Below the pieces are notes generated by a model. That model saw nothing but the letters and a program-made list of their open reading frames with translations. It was not told the DNA's origin and did not search any database. A stretch of 64,000 bases of DNA from a virus: positions 25,629 through 89,628 of the IMG/VR virus record IMGVR_UViG_3300028920_000056. The stretch is one strand, 5' to 3'. Positions 10,246 to 35,641 of the stretch are shown piece after piece. Numbering within the stretch: position 1 is the first letter of the stretch; each line of letters begins with the position of its first letter. Position numbers and translations under genes: made by a program.

Positions 10246-10590
10246 ATGCATTTAAATCACAAAGAAAAAGTCGCTTATAGACATACTAAAGTATGGAAAG
10301 AAAAGCGACTAGCTGTGTTGAAGCGAGATGGTAACATTTGCCAATTATGTAATAGGAAATTAAGTTCAAAAAAATTACATGTCCACCATATAGATGAGGA
10401 TAAATACAAAGACATTGATGAGATTGAATATTTAGTAACTTTATGTAAAGCTTGTCATCGTCAATTTATCGAAAGATGGATAGTAAAATTAAGAAGTAAA
10501 TCATATAAACCAAATAAATATACTTTGCTTATTGAGCAAATAGTTAAAGAGTTTACGGTTGAATTAGATAGAGAGAAAACAAATGGCTAG
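10246..10590 (+). CDS. free-standing HNH endonuclease
   Basis: RDGNICQLC...LHVHHID...LVTLCKACH. Confidence 0.85.
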   Translation: MHLNHKEKVAYRHTKVWKEKRLAVLKRDGNICQLCNRKLSSKKLHVHHIDEDKYKDIDEIEYLVTLCKACHRQFIERWIVKLRSKSYKPNKYTLLIEQIVKEFTVELDREKTNG

Positions 10591-13500
10591 AAGAAAAAAT
10601 TCAGTAAACATTTCGCAAAGAGCTGCTGTCATACAAAGTTTTTTTAATAAAATCAATGTAACAAAAATACAAGATTTAGTAAGTGGACAACAGAATGTTG
10701 GAACTGAAAATACTTTTAGTATGCAGCGTAGTTCTTTTGAGAGCATTACTTCTATAGATCAAAGTAGAGTACAAAGATATCGTGAATATGAACAGATGTG
10801 TTATGTTCCAGAACTTAATGGTGGTTTAGAAATATATGCCGATGATGCTTCATTATATAATACAAATGATGAAGTAATTGAGTCTCTTTCCGACAATAAT
10901 GAGATAGCTGATAATTTGAGCGACTTATGGTTTAAAGCGTTAGATATGAATGCTAATCTTTGGCACATTATTTATAACACTTGTAAATATGGTGACGCTT
11001 TTTATGAAGTAATACCTGATGATTATACAAACCCTAAACGATTAAAATACATGAGATATATACCTCCCCAATATGTTACTAGAGAAGAGAAAGATGGTAA
11101 TTTAATACAATTTATTGTAAGAATTCCTGCTGAAGACACAAGAAGTAGTAATTATTCATATTATGCAAATGACCAAAATAGTGAAGAAGTTTTTTTAAAA
11201 CCATGGCAAATTGTTCATTTTAAATTAGATGACAAAGAATTTGAACCATATGGAAAATCTGTTTTAGAAACAGGTAGATTAGCATTTAAACAAATGAAAT
11301 TAGTTGAAGATGCTATGTTAATCTACAGAATAACTAGAGCCCCTGAGAGAAGAATATTCACTATACCAGTTGGTAACCTTCCATTTAGAGAAGCAATGAG
11401 AAAAGTAGAAGATTTTAAACAAAGATATAGAAAAACTCCATGGATTGATCCATTAACAGGTGAAATCAATTATAAAGCAAATCCTATGTGTTTAACTATG
11501 GACACTAAGATTGATTTATTAGATGGCAGGACTTTAGAACTACAAGAAATCATAAAGGAATTCGAAGAAGGCAAGGAGCTTTGGACTTATTCAATAGATC
11601 GCGAAAATGACAATCAAATAGTTCCAGGAAAAATCGAGTGGGCAGGACCAACTCGAAAAAATGCCGAGCTAGTAGAAGTATTTATAGACAACGAAAAATC
11701 TATACGATGTACACCAGATCATAAATTCTTGTTAAGAAATGGTGAATATAAAGAGGCCCAGTACCTAAAAGCAGGTGATTCTTTGATGCCTAAGTACACA
11801 AAAGAATCTTCTAAGGGTTATGAAATGGTGTATAATCCTAAAACTAGGAAATATATTCCAACTTATATGGTAGTTGCTAGACACACTCAAGAGAAAAAGT
11901 GGAACAGAAGATGGACCAAAAGAACAATACATCACAAAGATTTTAATAAAATAAATAATAATCCAGACAATCTTTTGATATTAGAAAATAAAGATCATGT
12001 AGGATTACATGGAGAATTAAGTAAAAGAAATTGGTCTAATCCAAAATATAGAAAAAAGCAATATGAGTCTAGGGTAAAAGCTTGGAGAAATAGTTCAGAC
12101 GAGAGAAGAAAGCTACAATCAGAATTAATAACTAAATATAATAAAAGCGAAAAGCATAAAAGAGTTACTATAAGTAGAAATAAAAGAATTTGGTCAGACG
12201 AGAAAACAAAAGAAAAAATATCTGCTAATATGAGAAAACCAAAATCTACTACTGAAAACATGAAGATTAAATTCGGTGAAAAATTTTGGTCTTTTATTGA
12301 TAACGCTATTATAAAATTACAAGAACAAAACAAAGTAGTTGAATATCTAAACTCAAACAAAGAATTTATATTTCATTTCAAAACTTTAACGCCAAGAAAC
12401 AACGAGTCTATTCACAGACACTTGTTAACTAAAGCTTTTAGACAAAAAGGTTATGACGGTTTTGAAGATTATAAGTATACCTTAATTGACGATAATAGAT
12501 TGTCATATGAAGATATTAAAGACGATCATGAAAATGGTTTGAGTCAAAAAAAGATTGCTAATAAATTTGATGTTTCAAGATCGGTTATCAAAAAGTTGCT
12601 CAGAAGAAATCATAAAGTTGTAAAAGTTGTTCGCTTAAATGAACGAGAAGATACAGGCTGTATTACTGTTGCAAAATACCACAACTTTGCAATATCAGAT
12701 ATCATCGTGAGAAATTCTATCAACGATGATTTCTTTTTTCCTAGAAGACCAGATGGTAGTGGTCCAGCAGTTGAAACTTTACCAGGTGGTATGCAATTAA
12801 GTGAAATAGATGATGCAAGATTTTTTAAAGAAAAAATTCTTAGAACTATGAGAATTCCGCTTGCTTATTTAACTGGAGAAATGACAGGTGATGTCGCAAA
12901 GACTTCATTATCTGCTATGGATACTAATTTTGCTAAAACTATAGAAAGAATTCAAAAGCAGATTATAAAAAGTTTAGAAAAAATAGCGATAATTGAATTA
13001 GCATTTAAACGTTTTACAATAGAAGATTTACATGATTTTAGATTAAATCTAACAGTTCCATCAAAGATTTATGAAATGCAAGAGTTAGAGACGTTTAATG
13101 CAAAATTGAGTGCTATTCAATCAGCAATAGCACTAGCCGACGTAGAAACAAATAAACCATTTTTACCAAGAGAATGGTTATATAAAAATATAATGAAATT
13201 TAATGAAGAAGAAATATCAACTATTAAGCTTATGCAACAAGCTGAAATGGCAGAAAAAGAGGAAGATAAAGCAAGAGCAGAAGCTACTGCCGGAGGCGAA
13301 ATGGGTGGAGGTATGATGCCAGGAGGAGGTATGCCACTAGGTGGTGGTATGCCACTAGGTGGTGAACTTGGAGCTGGTGAAATGGGAGCTGGCGAAATGG
13401 GAGCCGGTGAAATGGGAGCTCTAGAGGTTGCGCCAGGCGGCCCGGCTGCTGCTGGTGGTGAAGCTGGATTAGAAATAGCAAGTAAAATAATTAAAATAGC

Positions 13501-13717
13501 CGGAAGAGAATTTTTAGTTGAAAATGAGAATGATATTAGAGAAATAATAAAATTTGTTAAAGAATTCAAAGAAAACCAAAAGAACGCTAAAGATAACTTT
13601 AGAAAGAGGTCTAAGAAAAAGTTGTATGAAAATAAGTTTGATTTACTTTTCATCCAAGGTGAATTTAAAGGCCTCATAAGACGTGTGAAAAAGAACAAAA
13701 ATATGCTGAAAGATTAA
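10583..13717 (+). CDS. portal protein (T4 gp20-like) interrupted by an intein
   Basis: KYGDAF, PYGKSVLE, EDAMLIYRITRAPERRIF, DDFFFPRR...VETLPGG are gp20 hallmarks; Gly/Met-rich C-terminal tail. About 635 aa after splicing. Confidence 0.95.
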   Translation: MARRKNSVNISQRAAVIQSFFNKINVTKIQDLVSGQQNVGTENTFSMQRSSFESITSIDQSRVQRYREYEQMCYVPELNGGLEIYADDASLYNTNDEVIESLSDNNEIADNLSDLWFKALDMNANLWHIIYNTCKYGDAFYEVIPDDYTNPKRLKYMRYIPPQYVTREEKDGNLIQFIVRIPAEDTRSSNYSYYANDQNSEEVFLKPWQIVHFKLDDKEFEPYGKSVLETGRLAFKQMKLVEDAMLIYRITRAPERRIFTIPVGNLPFREAMRKVEDFKQRYRKTPWIDPLTGEINYKANPMCLTMDTKIDLLDGRTLELQEIIKEFEEGKELWTYSIDRENDNQIVPGKIEWAGPTRKNAELVEVFIDNEKSIRCTPDHKFLLRNGEYKEAQYLKAGDSLMPKYTKESSKGYEMVYNPKTRKYIPTYMVVARHTQEKKWNRRWTKRTIHHKDFNKINNNPDNLLILENKDHVGLHGELSKRNWSNPKYRKKQYESRVKAWRNSSDERRKLQSELITKYNKSEKHKRVTISRNKRIWSDEKTKEKISANMRKPKSTTENMKIKFGEKFWSFIDNAIIKLQEQNKVVEYLNSNKEFIFHFKTLTPRNNESIHRHLLTKAFRQKGYDGFEDYKYTLIDDNRLSYEDIKDDHENGLSQKKIANKFDVSRSVIKKLLRRNHKVVKVVRLNEREDTGCITVAKYHNFAISDIIVRNSINDDFFFPRRPDGSGPAVETLPGGMQLSEIDDARFFKEKILRTMRIPLAYLTGEMTGDVAKTSLSAMDTNFAKTIERIQKQIIKSLEKIAIIELAFKRFTIEDLHDFRLNLTVPSKIYEMQELETFNAKLSAIQSAIALADVETNKPFLPREWLYKNIMKFNEEEISTIKLMQQAEMAEKEEDKARAEATAGGEMGGGMMPGGGMPLGGGMPLGGELGAGEMGAGEMGAGEMGALEVAPGGPAAAGGEAGLEIASKIIKIAGREFLVENENDIREIIKFVKEFKENQKNAKDNFRKRSKKKLYENKFDLLFIQGEFKGLIRRVKKNKNMLKD
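11489..12715 (+). mobile_element. 409-aa intein with HNH homing endonuclease in the portal gene
   Basis: Block A C1-LTMDTKIDLLDG, block B CTPDHKF, block F/G EDTGCITVAKYHNFAISDIIVRN followed by Ser +1; internal HHKDFNKINNNPDNL...H HNH motif and an HTH-like segment. Confidence 0.92.
13283..13470 (+). repeat. Gly/Met-rich coding repeats (GGGMPL, GAGEM) in the portal C-terminus
   Basis: Tandem GGAGC(T/C)GG(T/C)GAAATG and GGTATGCCACTAGGT units; locally high GC. Confidence 0.8.
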
Positions 13718-21262: not shown

Positions 21263-22031
21263 TTGATGGATAAAGATGCCACTAAGAATTTACTAAAAGA
21301 TTATAAATGTGAAGATTGTGTTTTTAGAAAAACAAATTTTCCTTTTAGCAGCAATGGAATCAAGTGTTTTACAAATCAAGGGCCATGTGAACAATTTGCT
21401 AAAGATATAAAAATAACAGTTAATTCGCCCATAACTTTTTGGATTGAAGAAACAATAAAAGCAGAAGTAAATAACTCATCATCAGTGGTAATAAAACTAG
21501 ATCAAATAAATATTGAATCAACGTATAATGTTAGTGTTGGCTCATATAATTTAACTTCTTTTTGTGAATATGGTATTAAAGATGAGTGTGGTAATTACCC
21601 TCCTCTTGAATTACTTACAATTTTAGTTCCAATAATTATGAATTCAATTAAGTTTAAAAAAGCTATAATAGAAGGAGTTATAACAATTGAACTCGAAAGA
21701 GACTAAAAATTTACTAAAAGATAGAGTATGTAAAGATTGCATAATGTTTTTTAATAAGCCAATACTAAGTTGTAAAGATGGATTATTTTGCACTGCAGAA
21801 AATAATACTTGTAAAAATTGGGTATATGATTATATTGTTATAAATACAACTAATGATGATATATATTCTGATCATGGTTATGTTTTTATTCCTGGTGAGA
21901 CATACTCACTCCGTGAAATAATGGAAGAAAATGATGCTGAGAAAATTATGAAAAGCGAAGAATTAAAAATGCTTATAAATAATGGAGAGATTAAATTGAC
22001 TCCTGTATATAAGATAAAAAAAGATCTTTGA
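21263..22031 (+). CDS. two Cys4 mini-domain proteins with N-terminal TKNLLKD tag (21263-21706, 21687-22031)
   Basis: DATKNLLKDYKCEDC and ETKNLLKDRVCKDC; GCATAATT motif at ~21251. Confidence 0.65.
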
Positions 22032-22074
22032 ATTTATTCTTTAATCTTTAAAGTTTAAATGTAAAGATAATATC

Positions 22075-22357
22075 GATGGAAGAATTAAATAAAGTATTAT
22101 AGCTTATGGTAAAGCGGCGACAGTCGGCGTTTTATTTTGGAGCTCCAGCTGACATTAAGTCGCAGAAGCCGGAATCATTTCCCGGACATTACTTTTATGC
22201 TCTAATTCTACCTATCAGAATTTGTCATAGGGAGGTGAGCTTAGTGTTCATGACCAAGAGGCTAACAACCTCGTTTGCATTTCATAGACAAATTCATCCG
22301 AAAGGAGGCAAATTAACATTTCTGATATTACGCCCGTCATTAAGACGGGCTTTTTTA
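22075..22357 (+). ncRNA. putative stand-alone structured RNA with tRNA-shaped domain
   Basis: GC-richer intergenic island between an AAAGATAA motif (22063) and a terminator; cloverleaf at 22093-22193 inside a long closing stem; second multi-stem domain 22213-22327. Confidence 0.65.
22331..22357 (+). terminator. intrinsic terminator
   Basis: GCCCGTC-ATTAA-GACGGGC plus TTTTTT. Confidence 0.9.
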
Positions 22358-22475
22358 TGCGAAAACATGAAATTCTTCCTTTAATTGCATAGATAATTAT
22401 GAAAACAAAAGTCGCTCGTTGAGGACTTTAATTATTTTATAAGCGATGTCGCATGAGTCGCAAAGGAGAAACATT

Positions 22476-22919
22476 ATGTCTAAAGATCTAACTATTTGGG
22501 ATGCGTTTGATAACATATTTGATAACTTTGAAAGTTCATTCTATCATATTGAACGTATAATTGAATCATATCCAGGATTCGCAAAATTTTATCCATCTTA
22601 TCCCCCTACAGATATCTACATAAAGAAAGACAAAACATTAATATTTGAGTTTGCAATTGCTGGGTATCCTGCAGAAAATATCAATTTAGAATGTGTTGGG
22701 GATCATCTTACTCTTACTTTAAAAGGTGATGATGTAGAAACTGTTCGTTATATTAAACAAGGTATTAAACATGCAGATGTCACTGCAAAATATGCAATTC
22801 CTTCTGACAGATATGATACTTCTAAGCTTGAAGCTAAAATTAATAGTGGAATACTTACAGTTACAATTCCTGCTAAAGAAAAAATAGAACCAACAAAAAT
22901 TGAAATTAAAAAAGAATAA
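22476..22919 (+). CDS. small heat-shock protein (Hsp20/alpha-crystallin)
   Basis: YPPTDIY...FEFAIAGY...AKINSGILTVTIP; SD AAGGAG supports ATG 22476. Confidence 0.92.
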   Translation: MSKDLTIWDAFDNIFDNFESSFYHIERIIESYPGFAKFYPSYPPTDIYIKKDKTLIFEFAIAGYPAENINLECVGDHLTLTLKGDDVETVRYIKQGIKHADVTAKYAIPSDRYDTSKLEAKINSGILTVTIPAKEKIEPTKIEIKKE

Positions 22920-22924
22920 TCGTT

Positions 22925-22953
22925 AAAGCCAGTACTTAAGTACTGGCTTTTTT
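22925..22953 (+). terminator. intrinsic terminator
   Basis: AAAGCCAGTACT-TA-AGTACTGGCTTT plus T-run. Confidence 0.9.
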
Positions 22954-23470: not shown

Positions 23471-24793
23471 ATGGACGATTTGACAAATGTAACTGTTGAT
23501 AATACTCCTACTAGATTTCCAAGGATTGCAAAACATTTAACTGAAGTTGATCCGGATCAGTTAAATGCATTGGATGCAACTAGCAAGACTTTTTATGATC
23601 ATTGTTATGATTTTTCTGCAGTGCCTACTAAACCTACTTCATTAGCTGGTGTAGACTCTAGCGAAAAAGAGGTTTGTAAACTAACTGTAACAGCACCTGT
23701 AGCTTCAGAATATGCTGTAAAAACTTTACAGGTACTTACTGGAAGTGATGCTGTATTAGAAGTTCAATCATTTACTGTTACTGCTGCTTGTTCAAGTAGT
23801 GGTGATTTAACTGTTGATGGAGATACAGTTGCTGTATTAGACACAGATGATGCAGCAGCGGTTGCTGGAAAAATAAGAGCTGCTAGTTTAACTAATTGGA
23901 CAACTTCTGGAAGTGGAGCAGATGTGATACTAACTGCAAAAACATATGATGACAAAGCAGAAGTTGTATTAAATGCTGGAGGAACTGGAACTACATTCAG
24001 TGCAATTTCAGAAGATACTAAAGGAACTACAACAGCAGGAAATATTACTATTACATTAGAAGGACCTGGAGCAGTTACTGTCGCTATTAGTGACGGTGAT
24101 GATGTCGCAACAGTAGTAGCATCAATTGATGGAGAAACATATACTGGATGGACAACATCAGTTGATGGAGATACTGTAACATTTACTTGTGACACTTATG
24201 GACCAAAAACAGGAAGTTTTGTTGACACAGATTCTACGGGAGTCACAGTGGCAACTGGAGATTTAGTGGATGATAATGTTGGAGTTGATGCAAGTGGTAA
24301 TGTAACAGTAACATTAGACGGTACTCCTTATGTAACTGCTTTGGCAATAGATGATGATACTGTTGAAAAAGTTGCAACTGCAATTGGAGCAACAAGCTAT
24401 GGAGCCGGATGGAGTGCTGGAGTAGTAGGAGATGTAGTTACTTTCACTGCTGTTGGATATGGTGACGCATCACCAGATATATCTTTTGCAGATACTGACA
24501 CAACTGGAGCAGCTGGAACAACATCTGTTGAAACACAAGGTCTTAATCAAGTTACTGTTACTTGGACAGATGTAGGACCTGCTTCAGATTCTTATAAAGT
24601 ATATTATAAAACTAGTGCGGCTGGGACAGAAACACAAGCAGATATATTAGGCGAAACAGAATTTACTGGAACTAAAAATCCACTTGGTACTGATATACCA
24701 GCGGCAGCAACAAAGATAGGTTTTGTAGTAGCTGGAGTTAATGAAGTTGGAACTGGAGAGTATACTGATCCTGTTTTTGTAGATATAGTATAA
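23471..24793 (+). CDS. virion decoration/appendage protein: FN3-like domain with three beta-rich repeats
   Basis: T/V/G/A/D-rich; three ~80-aa repeats; FN3-like VTVTW...SYKVYY...VVAGVNEVGTG; own AAAGATAA motif, SD GGAGG and terminator. Confidence 0.7.
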   Translation: MDDLTNVTVDNTPTRFPRIAKHLTEVDPDQLNALDATSKTFYDHCYDFSAVPTKPTSLAGVDSSEKEVCKLTVTAPVASEYAVKTLQVLTGSDAVLEVQSFTVTAACSSSGDLTVDGDTVAVLDTDDAAAVAGKIRAASLTNWTTSGSGADVILTAKTYDDKAEVVLNAGGTGTTFSAISEDTKGTTTAGNITITLEGPGAVTVAISDGDDVATVVASIDGETYTGWTTSVDGDTVTFTCDTYGPKTGSFVDTDSTGVTVATGDLVDDNVGVDASGNVTVTLDGTPYVTALAIDDDTVEKVATAIGATSYGAGWSAGVVGDVVTFTAVGYGDASPDISFADTDTTGAAGTTSVETQGLNQVTVTWTDVGPASDSYKVYYKTSAAGTETQADILGETEFTGTKNPLGTDIPAAATKIGFVVAGVNEVGTGEYTDPVFVDIV

Positions 24794-35318: not shown

Positions 35319-35641
35319 ATAAAATACTATCCTTAAAATTAACTACTCATAATGCGAAAGATAATCATATATGAGATTTAACGAAGTAAATAGTTCCGAA
35401 ATGTTATTTTGCACATATACTAATGTAGATATTTTTTCTTACATTATTAATAAATATAAAGGTAGTTGTGATTTATTAATAATAAAATTTTGGGATAACA
35501 TGTCTAAAGTATATGTAGTTAGACTCAGCAGTATTTCTAAAGTAGTTTTTGATAGTAAAAAATATATTTATATTAGAACACACAAAATCAATAAAAAAGT
35601 TTTATTTCAAAAAATATTTAGTAAAAAATGGAAGTATGTAG

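What the first reader, a model, noticed from the sequence alone, without database searches (positions are those of the whole stretch)
22075..22357. Stand-alone ~280-nt RNA with a tRNA-shaped domain, extended anticodon arm and a second switch-like domain
Seen: G22075 lies 5 nt after the GATA of an AAAGATAA motif (the same offset as several SD-less ATGs) and is the first base of a long closing stem (GATGG-A-AGAATTA / TAATTCT-A-CCTATC; ATAAAGTA / TACTTTTAT). Inside, in tRNA order: T8A9, D-arm GCTT-ATGGTA-AAGC (22102-22115), G26, anticodon stem GCGAC/GTCGC (22117-21/22159-63) whose loop is replaced by a 37-nt insert with its own helix GTCGGC/GCTGAC, 5-nt variable loop AGAAG, and a degenerate T-arm CCGG-AATCATTTC-CCGG. 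There is no CCA or normal anticodon loop. Domain 2 (22213-22327): TATCAGAA/TTCTGATA, GAGGT/ACCTC, a TCC-GAAA-GGA tetraloop, and AATTTGTC able to pair with GACAAATT or GGCAAATT (switch or pseudoknot). A strong terminator follows. Established loose precedents: tRNA-like domains in bacterial Y RNAs (YrlA) and T4 stable RNA species. Inference: a tRNA mimic, e.g. decoy for anticodon nucleases or substrate of the phage RtcB/Rnl ligases.
Basis: partly seen in the sequence, partly recalled or inferred. Interest (0 to 1): 0.75.

Follow-up and report, generated by a model that had tools for sequence, protein, structure and literature searches.

The report
Orphan structured RNA in sediment phage
A GC-rich, strongly folding ~280-base stretch between two genes of an uncultured T4-like sediment phage is probably a small non-coding RNA gene of no known family, but the proposed resemblance to tRNA is no better than chance.

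Summary
The described sequence features are all present at 22075-22357. The stretch lies between a promoter-like TGTAAAGATAAT (22060-22071) and a strong intrinsic terminator (22332-22357). It is a GC island: 0.40 against 0.30 for the record. It folds better than 200 of 200 shuffles (z -3.4).

It recurs at about 95-97% identity in two other metagenome contigs that cover its whole length. Across these, 15 substituted sites avoid the stems predicted from the window alone (4 of 15 paired, against 166 of 283 positions; permutation p about 1e-4 to 5e-3). Three of the four paired changes keep the pair, and all three terminator changes lie in its loop. A 2-nt insertion and a nonsense change break the overlapping 92-aa ORF, which has no homologues.

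The tRNA reading fails its tests:
- ARAGORN finds nothing at default settings, and the relaxed setting that finds the cloverleaf gives 45 hits in this window.
- No tRNA, tmRNA or Y-RNA match appears in Rfam, even at E<=10.
- The D and anticodon helices have pairing probability below 0.01.
- There is no T-loop, CCA or anticodon loop.

No compensatory double change was seen, and no diverged homologue in 17 related phage loci or 40 other Hsp20 loci. No RNA data exist. Verdict: a probable orphan phage sRNA of unknown function and moderate interest.

The parts
22060..22071 (+). Promoter-like element TGTAAAGATAAT (extended -10-like). The predicted transcript start is about 22075-22078.
   Evidence: TGYWWAGATAA has 5 sites in the window against 1.36 expected; 2 of 100 shuffles reach 5. 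All five sites are intergenic and lie 3-7 nt before an ATG. Three of them precede SD-less ORFs of 98, 124 and 66 aa. The start site is inferred; no transcript data exist.
22076..22102 (+). 8-codon mini-ORF (MEELNKVL, stop TAG). It starts 6 nt after the motif, the same geometry as the phage's SD-less genes, and overlaps the 5' strands of P1 and P2.
   Evidence: It is unchanged in L067 and no X3 change is listed in it. Translation is not shown.
22075..22216 (+). Domain 1. Closing helices are P1 (22078-79 with 22211-12, or 22075-79 with 22212-16), P1b (22081-87 with 22203-09) and P2 (22091-96 with 22190-95). They lead to a four-way junction with arms 22101-22144, 22148-22163 and 22169-22185.
   Evidence: MFE and alignment folds. 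Mean pairing probabilities: P1b 0.94, P2 0.61, the 22108-16/22128-36 helix 0.96, the CCGG hairpin 0.80. 1 of 6 substituted sites is paired, and that one keeps its pair as G-U.
22138..22147 (+). 10-nt palindrome UGGAGCUCCA inside arm A. It could pair between two copies of the RNA.
   Evidence: Cofold of two copies of domain 1 gives -11.7 kcal/mol relative to two monomers. A palindrome of this length is not rare by chance, so this is only a lead.
22213..22330 (+). Domain 2. The closing helix is 22213-20 with 22320-27, continued by 22221-26 with 22307-12 (alternative partner 22288-93). Inside are hairpins 22230-55 and 22258-72 and the GAAA-tetraloop hairpin 22297-306. Two Shine-Dalgarno-like runs are present: GGAGGUGA at 22231-38 and AAGGAGG at 22302-08.
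   Evidence: The structural signal is weaker than in domain 1: 3 of 6 substituted sites are paired and one breaks a pair. The +AA insertion in L067 and X3 falls right after the 22219-26 strand, in a junction.
22332..22357 (+). Intrinsic terminator GCCCGUC-loop-GACGGGC followed by U6.
   Evidence: 7 pairs, 6 of them G-C. Pairing probability 0.999. All changes in L067, X3 and X4 (22339, 22341, 22343) lie in the loop, and the stem is invariant.
22386..22397 (+). Context: a second promoter-like element, TGCATAGATAAT, between the terminator and the Hsp20 gene (22476-22919). It argues that Hsp20 is a separate transcription unit.
   Evidence: In L067 the T of the TGC is a C.

Best explanation
This is a stand-alone gene for a structured non-coding RNA of about 280 nt, of no described family. 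It is carried in a hypervariable accessory region of an uncultured T4-like myovirus from marine or salt-marsh sediment.

Transcription is inferred to start about 22075-22078, from a TGTAAAGATAAT element of the class that precedes this phage's SD-less genes. It is inferred to stop at the intrinsic terminator at 22332-22357.

The RNA is predicted to fold into two multi-helix domains. Domain 1 is a four-way junction closed by the 5' end. Domain 2 is a junction closed by UAUCAGAA/UUCUGAUA and holds a GAAA-tetraloop hairpin.

It is highly structured and shows no long complementarity to the rest of the phage record. My best guess is therefore that it acts in trans as a protein-binding or scaffolding RNA, not as an antisense regulator.

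Shown: the anatomy, the folding excess, the GC island, recurrence in related contigs, stem-avoiding substitutions and loss of the ORF. Inferred: transcription, the ends of the transcript, the exact fold and the function.
For: 1. No known family matches. Rfam gives 0 matches at gathering score in the window and only noise at E<=10. ARAGORN finds 0 genes. There is no DNA match in 50,697 phage records.

2. Folding and composition stand out. z is -3.38, with 0 of 200 shuffles as good, against -2.25 on the other strand. 8 of 83 predicted pairs are G-U, which would be C-A on the other strand. The stretch is a GC island.

3. It has its own boundaries: a promoter-like motif, a terminator and a second promoter-like motif before Hsp20.

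4. It recurs. L067, a JGI contig, is 96.97% identical over 363 nt. A 3,635-nt contig of run X3 covers 22009-22950, while the upstream gene (21722-22009) is replaced there by 40 other letters. A 295-nt X4 contig covers 22275-22565.

5. Substitutions respect a structure predicted from the window alone. 4 of 15 variable sites are paired, against 166 of 283 positions (hypergeometric P 0.011; pairing-probability permutation p 0.0005). Base-stratified permutation gives p 0.0001 (probability) and 0.005 (count), or 0.0014 and 0.021 without the terminator. 3 of the 4 paired changes keep a pair: C-G to U-G twice, and G-U to A-U.

6. It is not coding. ORF92 has no homologues. A +2 frameshift is present in both L067 and X3, and X3 has a TAG at codon 6. 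TAG is a normal stop in this phage, in 13 of 96 long ORFs. The ORF also runs through the terminator.
Against: - No transcript evidence of any kind exists.
- All known copies are at least about 93% identical. 0 of 83 pairs shows a compensatory double change, so structure is supported only by where substitutions fall. One variant contig (X3) supplies most of those substitutions.
- Its list may lack up to 2 changes: 40 of its 42 are listed.
- The RNA is no more conserved in sequence than its flanks in X3: 15/283 against 6/118 in the spacer and 18/444 in Hsp20.
- One paired change (22277) breaks a predicted pair, and the signal in domain 2 is weak (count p 0.27).
- 2.9% of same-size windows of the record fold as far below the GC expectation.
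- It is absent from 17 MCP-related loci, 10 related whole records and 40 other Hsp20 loci.
- The proposed trans-acting, protein-binding role is a guess.
Confidence: 0.55

Rival explanations
1. It is the 5' leader (attenuator) of the Hsp20 mRNA. Transcription would start at 22075, the structured domains would sense a signal such as temperature, and the terminator would decide whether polymerase reads on into Hsp20.
For: The RNA sits directly upstream of Hsp20 in every contig that spans the junction: the window, L067, and the X3 and X4 contigs. X3 keeps RNA plus Hsp20 while the upstream gene is swapped. Right after the terminator, UUCUUCCUUU (22373-82) and CAUG are predicted to pair with the Hsp20 SD and AUG. 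The 4 L067 changes in that fold all keep pairs. Those segments would be in the mRNA only if transcripts read through the terminator.
Against: The terminator has pairing probability 0.999, and I found no competing antiterminator (inspection). A promoter-like TGCATAGATAAT lies between the terminator and Hsp20. 40 other Hsp20 loci (2 viral, 38 metagenomic) lack the element, and the two I read have only about 65-nt spacers. Linkage among copies at least 93% identical says little.
Confidence: 0.15
2. It has no function of its own. It would be a decaying remnant, such as a tRNA pseudogene or a mobile-element scar, kept next to a terminator in a hypervariable region, with folding and GC excess as leftovers.
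For: It is known only from one narrow lineage. It diverges as fast as its flanks. There is no compensatory change. The region between the capsid gene and the 166-aa gene varies from about 1.7 to 7.4 kb among relatives. A good D-arm-like string could be a tRNA relic.
Against: Substitutions avoid stems, including at G and C positions, in a base-stratified test. The terminator stem is invariant while its loop changes at three sites. The promoter-like motif is intact in all copies.
Confidence: 0.15
3. It is a tRNA mimic. Domain 1 would imitate tRNA and act as a decoy for host anticodon nucleases, or as a substrate for the phage's RtcB and RNA ligase.
For: UAGCUU-AUGGUA-AAGCG fits the D-arm consensus (U8, A14, G18 G19, A21, R26). 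Both folds give a four-way junction. The phage encodes RtcB and an RNA ligase and has no tRNA genes in the 89.6 kb held.
Against: No tRNA, tmRNA or Y-RNA match at E<=10. The ARAGORN hit appears only at noise level, 45 per 64 kb. The D-arm pattern occurs 13 times on the + strand. The tRNA helices have probability below 0.01. The T-arm has 4 pairs and a 9-nt loop with no UUC. There is no 7-nt anticodon loop and no free CCA end. The repair genes lie about 35-39 kb away.
Confidence: 0.07
4. It encodes a small protein. Candidates are the 92-aa ORF, or a peptide of about 30-47 aa starting at GTG 22244 or ATG 22250, behind the SD-like GGAGGUGA.
For: A strong SD-like run lies 5-11 nt before GTG/ATG. 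That sub-ORF stays open in L067 and ends in the terminator loop in the variants (TAA or TGA).
Against: ORF92 has no homologues and is frameshifted in L067 and X3, with a stop at codon 6 in X3. For the sub-ORF, X3 shows 4 replacement and 2 silent changes in about 32 codons and loses the ATG (my codon reading). In the window the sub-ORF has no stop before the terminator.
Confidence: 0.05

Closest known systems
Bacterial and phage Y RNAs of the YrlA type (Chen et al. 2014, PMC4201824; passages read)
   Same: A non-coding RNA, also found in phages, in which a long stem formed by distant segments carries a multi-arm domain that can be drawn like a tRNA.
   Different: YrlA is defined by nearly invariant T and D stem-loops, a GNCGAAN0-1G motif near the 5' end, and a Ro60 gene nearby on the same strand. 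Here there is no GNCGAA and no T-loop motif, no TROVE gene in the 89.6 kb held and no Rfam match. In YrlA the Ro-binding stem takes the place of the anticodon stem; here the closing stem extends the 'acceptor' side.
Stable small RNAs of phage T4 (species 1 and 2, rnaC/rnaD). Recalled, not checked in any call.
   Same: Small stable RNAs of unknown function encoded by a T4-type myovirus. This phage has a gp23-like capsid protein, a sheath and UvsX.
   Different: As I recall, the T4 RNAs lie in the tRNA gene cluster and are shorter. This record has no tRNA genes, and the region has no DNA match in the phage collection, which lists T4-like phages such as KVP40.
Transcription-attenuating leaders and RNA thermometers of small heat-shock genes. 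Established classes; named from memory.
   Same: A structured RNA ending in an intrinsic terminator directly upstream of an Hsp20 gene, with a predicted SD-sequestering fold after it.
   Different: No antiterminator alternative was found, a promoter-like motif intervenes, and other Hsp20 loci lack the element. No Rfam thermometer or leader family matches above noise.
tRNA
   Same: A four-way junction and a D-arm-like string.
   Different: It fails the detection programs and lacks the anticodon loop, T-loop and CCA end.

Membership tests
tRNA / tRNA-like element | Recognised by tRNA detectors (ARAGORN, Rfam tRNA covariance model) | tested here: not met
   ARAGORN at default settings finds 0 genes in the window and the whole record. 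With introns allowed it still finds nothing at the default threshold. The cloverleaf appears only at -ps80, where 45 hits arise in 64 kb. No tRNA match at E<=10 on 601-nt and 151-nt pieces.
tRNA / tRNA-like element | D-arm with U8, A14, G18 G19, A21, R26 | tested here: inconclusive
   It is present as sequence at 22100-22116. The same pattern occurs 13 times on the + strand and 2 times on the - strand of the window. The helix has pairing probability 0.004.
tRNA / tRNA-like element | 5-bp anticodon stem with a 7-nt loop (U33) | tested here: not met
   The GCGAC/GUCGC stem encloses 37 nt. ARAGORN's forced loop ACAUUAA has C at position 33.
tRNA / tRNA-like element | T-arm: 5 bp and a 7-nt loop with U54 U55 C56 | tested here: not met
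   CCGG/CCGG gives 4 bp, and the loop AAUCAUUUC has 9 nt. No GTTCRA or TTCRANNC motif is present.
tRNA / tRNA-like element | 7-bp acceptor stem ending in a free 3' NCCA | tested here: not met
   The stem has 6 contiguous pairs, with 3-4 unpaired nt on each side of the junction. The 3' strand continues into P1 and domain 2. The only CCA strings are internal, at 22145 and 22254.
YrlA-type Y RNA | Encoded near a Ro60 (TROVE) gene on the same strand (PMC4201824) | tested here: not met
   No TROVE match in the 89.6-kb record; the control genomes did match. The record is about 47% complete, so absence from the whole phage is not shown.
YrlA-type Y RNA | GNCGAAN0-1G motif near the 5' end, and nearly invariant T and D stem-loops (PMC4201824) | tested here: not met
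   No GNCGAA anywhere in 22075-22357 and no T-loop motif. No Rfam family matches.
tmRNA | tRNA-like domain formed by the 5' and 3' ends, plus a tag reading frame | tested here: not met
   ARAGORN tmRNA search finds nothing, even at -ps80. No Rfam tmRNA match.
Riboswitch / attenuator leader | Terminator that competes with an alternative (antiterminator) pairing; conserved upstream of homologous genes | tested here: not met
   Terminator pairing probability is 0.999. By inspection, no segment is complementary to either terminator half. The element is absent upstream of 40 other Hsp20 genes.
Protein-coding gene (ORF 22106-22384) | Frame kept open and under purifying selection in relatives; homologues exist | tested here: not met
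   No homologue. A +2 insertion after 22226 is present in L067 and X3, and CAG>TAG at 22121 in X3.
Stand-alone bacterial/phage sRNA gene (generic kind) | Own promoter, intrinsic terminator, non-coding, structure conserved | tested here: inconclusive
   The terminator is met. The promoter is only a motif. Non-coding is met. Structure is supported by the placement of substitutions but not by covariation. The transcript cannot be tested here.

The most novel reading that the evidence does not exclude
Domain 1 is a tRNA-derived four-way junction that still engages tRNA-binding proteins, as a decoy for host anticodon nucleases or a handle for the phage's RtcB and RNA-ligase repair system. Domain 2, with its two alternative partners for AAUUUGUC, works as a switch. 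This would be a new class of phage counter-defence RNA.
Probability: 0.07. Interest if true: 0.75.

Novelty: new member of a known kind. Interest (0 to 1): 0.33.

Why it matters
Non-coding RNAs of phages are poorly catalogued, and those of uncultured T4-like phages from sediments hardly at all. A stable 280-nt two-domain RNA with no Rfam family would add a new orphan family. It would also give a concrete target for synthesis, structure probing and protein pull-down.

The finding also serves as a caution. A convincing hand-drawn cloverleaf in AT-rich phage DNA is at noise level: 45 such hits in this 64-kb window. Claims of tRNA mimicry therefore need detector scores or covariation.

As it stands, the element is confined to one narrow lineage and has no functional lead, so its general importance is modest.

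Tried and rejected
**Homologue searches that found nothing**
- DNA search of the phage collection in distant mode.
- A 16-nt D-arm pattern in viral contigs gave 36 loci. All share only the 16-40-nt string, inside coding sequence or unrelated tRNAs.
- Two further patterns in viral contigs gave 0 hits, and two in genome contigs gave 0 hits.
- blastn and nhmmer against 17 capsid-related loci.
- blastn against 10 whole related virus records returned only 14-34-nt matches at E>=0.03.
- Covariance models R1 (domain 1) and R2 (domain 2) over 59 sources, 472,801 bases, matched only the window and L067. They matched 0 of the 5 largest related records. The control warning in those answers applies: an empty answer shows little.
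- The earlier-findings index gave nothing by sequence or for relatives.

**Neighbour route**
- The Hsp20 single-protein scan of viral contigs found none.
- The alignment scan found 2 distant loci without the RNA.
- The metagenome scan gave 39 loci, of which only L067 has the RNA.

**Expression**
- No RNA holder was listed among 6 runs, so expression could not be addressed.
- Parts of the stretch without contig cover in X2, X4 and X5 say nothing.

**Antisense targets**
- blastn-short of the RNA against the record gave no complementary match longer than 12 exact nt or 15 nt with one mismatch.
- A 16-nt direct match at the start of the record lies in coding sequence and is taken as chance.

**Ideas rejected**
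- TAG recoding, which would fuse the mini-ORF to ORF92 and make the X3 CAG>TAG change silent. TAG ends 13 of 96 long ORFs, the structural genes are intact under table 11, and the +2 insertion breaks the frame anyway.
- A GAAA tetraloop receptor: UAUGG is present, but there is no CCUAAG partner (inspection).
- The palindrome-mediated dimer is kept only as a lead.

- The alifold result that all 15 substitutions fall in unpaired columns is biased, because the program saw both sequences. I rely on the window-only fold instead.
- In one search I placed the GAGGU/ACCUC helix one base off. Its printed probability (0.000) and the two whole-model energies that include it are invalid. The helix is correct at 22232-36 with 22268-72.
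- One literature search listed 15 of 109 papers. I read passages of PMC4201824 only and saw the others as listing lines. This does not show that such an RNA is unpublished.
- I did not ask for supplementary files. The supplementary tables of PMC4201824 that list YrlA loci could bear on the comparison.
Full report
**Setting.** The window is 64 kb of an 89.6-kb IMG/VR virus record judged about 47% complete. It encodes a large terminase, a portal, a gp23-like major capsid protein, a tail sheath, UvsX and helicases. The capsid protein is under 37% identical to that of any of 50,697 sequenced phages, and its matches are T4-type phages. Near-identical DNA is held by marine-sediment and salt-marsh metagenome runs. 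The record is 29.8% G+C and has no tRNA gene.

**The observation.** The terminator at 22332-22350 plus a T run is found by the scan, and the 92-aa ORF at 22106-22384 exists.

The region stands out from its surroundings:
- G+C reaches 0.44 at 22100-22249 against 0.21-0.30 on both sides.
- The 283 nt rank at the 97.8th G+C percentile of the record.
- The + strand folds to -78.3 kcal/mol against -62.3 +/- 4.7 for 200 shuffles, none as good (z -3.38). The - strand gives z -2.25, with 5 of 200 shuffles as good.
- Relative to a G+C regression over 316 windows of the record, the fold is 14 kcal/mol (2 sd) too stable, and 2.9% of windows are as extreme.

So it is unusual, but not unique in the record.

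**Known families.**
- Rfam 15 gives no match at gathering score in the window.
- At E<=10 on 601, 151 and 131 nt there are only far-sub-threshold hits, mostly to the terminator, and none to tRNA, tmRNA or Y RNA.
- ARAGORN at default settings finds nothing, also with introns allowed.
The same setting yields 45 'tRNAs' in the window, most of them inside genes.
- The D-arm-like string is a good match to the consensus. An equivalent pattern occurs 13 times on the + strand and 2 times on the - strand.
- The tRNA-like core is 4.4 kcal/mol less stable than the MFE core. Its three helices have pairing probabilities of 0.004-0.008.
- There is no T-loop motif, no GNCGAA motif and no terminal CCA.
- No Ro60 gene is in the record. 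The YrlA criteria were taken from passages of PMC4201824.
- RtcB, a PARP-domain protein and an RNA ligase are present, but 35-39 kb downstream.

What does survive in both folds is a four-way junction closed by P1 and P2.

**Relatives.** The element is rare.
- 17 loci around related capsid genes, 15 of them at 67-78% capsid identity, lack it by blastn and nhmmer.
- Ten of their whole records lack it by blastn. The five largest of these also lack it by covariance models.
- The interval between the capsid gene and the conserved 166-aa gene ranges from about 1.7 to 7.4 kb among them. The RNA therefore sits in an accessory hot spot.
- Through the downstream Hsp20 gene (Pfam HSP20) I found 6 related proteins, then 2 viral and 39 metagenomic loci.
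- Only L067 carries the RNA: 96.97% identity over 363 nt, although its Hsp20 is only 80% identical in protein, with a mosaic middle part.
- Laying public contigs on the region showed a 3,635-nt contig of run X3 covering 22009-22950. It has 42 differences, and the upstream 114-aa gene is replaced by 40 other letters. A 295-nt X4 contig covers 22275-22565.
- Pattern scans of viral contigs and of GTDB genomes found no more copies.

**Is it an RNA with structure?** Fifteen sites in 22075-22357 differ in X3 and/or L067, and both carry AA inserted after 22226. I tested them against the fold predicted from the window sequence alone.
- Only 4 of 15 sites are paired, although 166 of 283 positions are (hypergeometric P 0.011). 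Their mean pairing probability is 0.24 against 0.59 (permutation p 0.0005).
- Keeping base identity fixed, p is 0.0001 for probability and 0.005 for count. Without the terminator these are 0.0014 and 0.021. For domain 1 they are 0.007 and 0.025, and for domain 2 they are 0.037 and 0.27.
- Three of the four paired changes keep a pair, and one (22277) breaks a pair in a weak helix that has an alternative.
- The three terminator changes are all in the loop, which reads differently in the window, L067, X3 and X4, while the stem is invariant.
- Eight of 83 pairs are G-U, which fits the + strand.

Limits of this evidence:
- No pair shows a double compensatory change.
- Most changes come from one contig, whose list may lack 2 entries.
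- The RNA diverges as fast as its flanks: 5.3% against 5.1% and 4.1%.

**Is it coding?**
- ORF92 has no homologue among 5.8 billion proteins.
- The AA insertion shifts its frame in both L067 and X3. In L067 the shifted frame ends 4 codons after the insertion.
- X3 changes codon 6 to TAG.
- TAG is an ordinary stop here, in 13 of 96 long ORFs.
- In the first 40 codons X3 has 1 nonsense, 4 replacement and 0 silent changes (my reading).
- A shorter frame behind GGAGGUGA stays open, but changes neutrally and has no stop before the terminator in the window.

**Transcription unit.** TGYWWAGATAA occurs 5 times against 1.36 expected, and 2 of 100 shuffles reach 5. Every site is intergenic and 3-7 nt before an ATG. 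Three precede SD-less ORFs of 98, 124 and 66 aa, one precedes the RNA, and one lies between the RNA's terminator and Hsp20.

This fits three successive units: RNA, Hsp20 and the 98-aa gene. Terminators lie at 22332 and 22925. At the RNA the ATG at 22076 opens only an 8-codon frame.

**Function.** Nothing tests it. There is no long complementarity to the rest of the record and no partner gene that travels with it apart from Hsp20. I take it to be a trans-acting, probably protein-binding, structured RNA (confidence 0.55 for a stand-alone structured ncRNA; the mode of action is a guess).

The main rival is an Hsp20 leader. It is favoured by the constant adjacency and by an SD- and AUG-sequestering fold that would exist only in read-through transcripts, with 4 of 4 L067 changes keeping pairs. 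It is disfavoured by the intervening promoter-like motif, the very stable terminator with no competitor, and 40 Hsp20 loci without the element.

**Verdict.** This is a real and unusual sequence feature, most likely an orphan phage sRNA gene. The tRNA-mimic interpretation is not supported. Interest is moderate to low until a transcript or diverged homologues are found.

Noticed in passing
window 22358-22482: The stretch between the RNA's terminator and the Hsp20 start is predicted to fold so that UUCUUCCUUU pairs with the Hsp20 Shine-Dalgarno run and CAUG pairs with the start codon. All 4 differences in L067 keep the pairs. This could be a thermometer-like control of the small heat-shock gene. 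The 5' strand would be in the mRNA only if transcripts read through the terminator.
   Followed up: partly
window 22060, 22386, 22955, 25231(-), 29607: TGYWWAGATAA marks five intergenic sites, each 3-7 nt before an ATG with no Shine-Dalgarno run. It looks like a promoter class that gives leaderless mRNAs. AAAGATAA alone also precedes SD-less starts at 35357 and 45579.
   Followed up: partly
window 21722-22009: In the related X3 contig most of the 114-aa Cys-rich gene is replaced by 40 other letters, while the RNA and Hsp20 are kept. The small Cys4 genes here seem to be swapped as cassettes.
   Followed up: no
window 22476-22919 / L067 449-901: The Hsp20 genes of the window and L067 are nearly identical at both ends but strongly diverged in the middle, with two 6-nt indels. 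The flanking non-coding DNA is about 97% identical. This looks like recombination inside the gene.
   Followed up: no
window 10583-13717: The portal ORF is 1,044 aa, with an HNH-endonuclease match at residues 404-500 inside it. This may be an intein or an inserted homing element. The G+C-richest 283-nt window of the record (0.51) lies at 13226-13508 in the same ORF.
   Followed up: no
L051 10001-11906 and L054 10001-11293: The capsid gene matches in two pieces, separated by about 260-290 nt, in these two relatives. This may be an intron or an insertion.
   Followed up: no
window 23471-24793: A 440-aa Thr/Gly/Asp/Val-rich ORF with G+C near 0.40, no Pfam match, and only short repeat-like matches in relatives.
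   Followed up: no
window 22446-22475: The two L067 changes before the Hsp20 start (both GTCGC to GTCAC) would be silent third-position changes in the frame of the upstream ATG at 22446. They also keep pairs in the predicted fold. The true start codon is therefore not settled.
   Followed up: no
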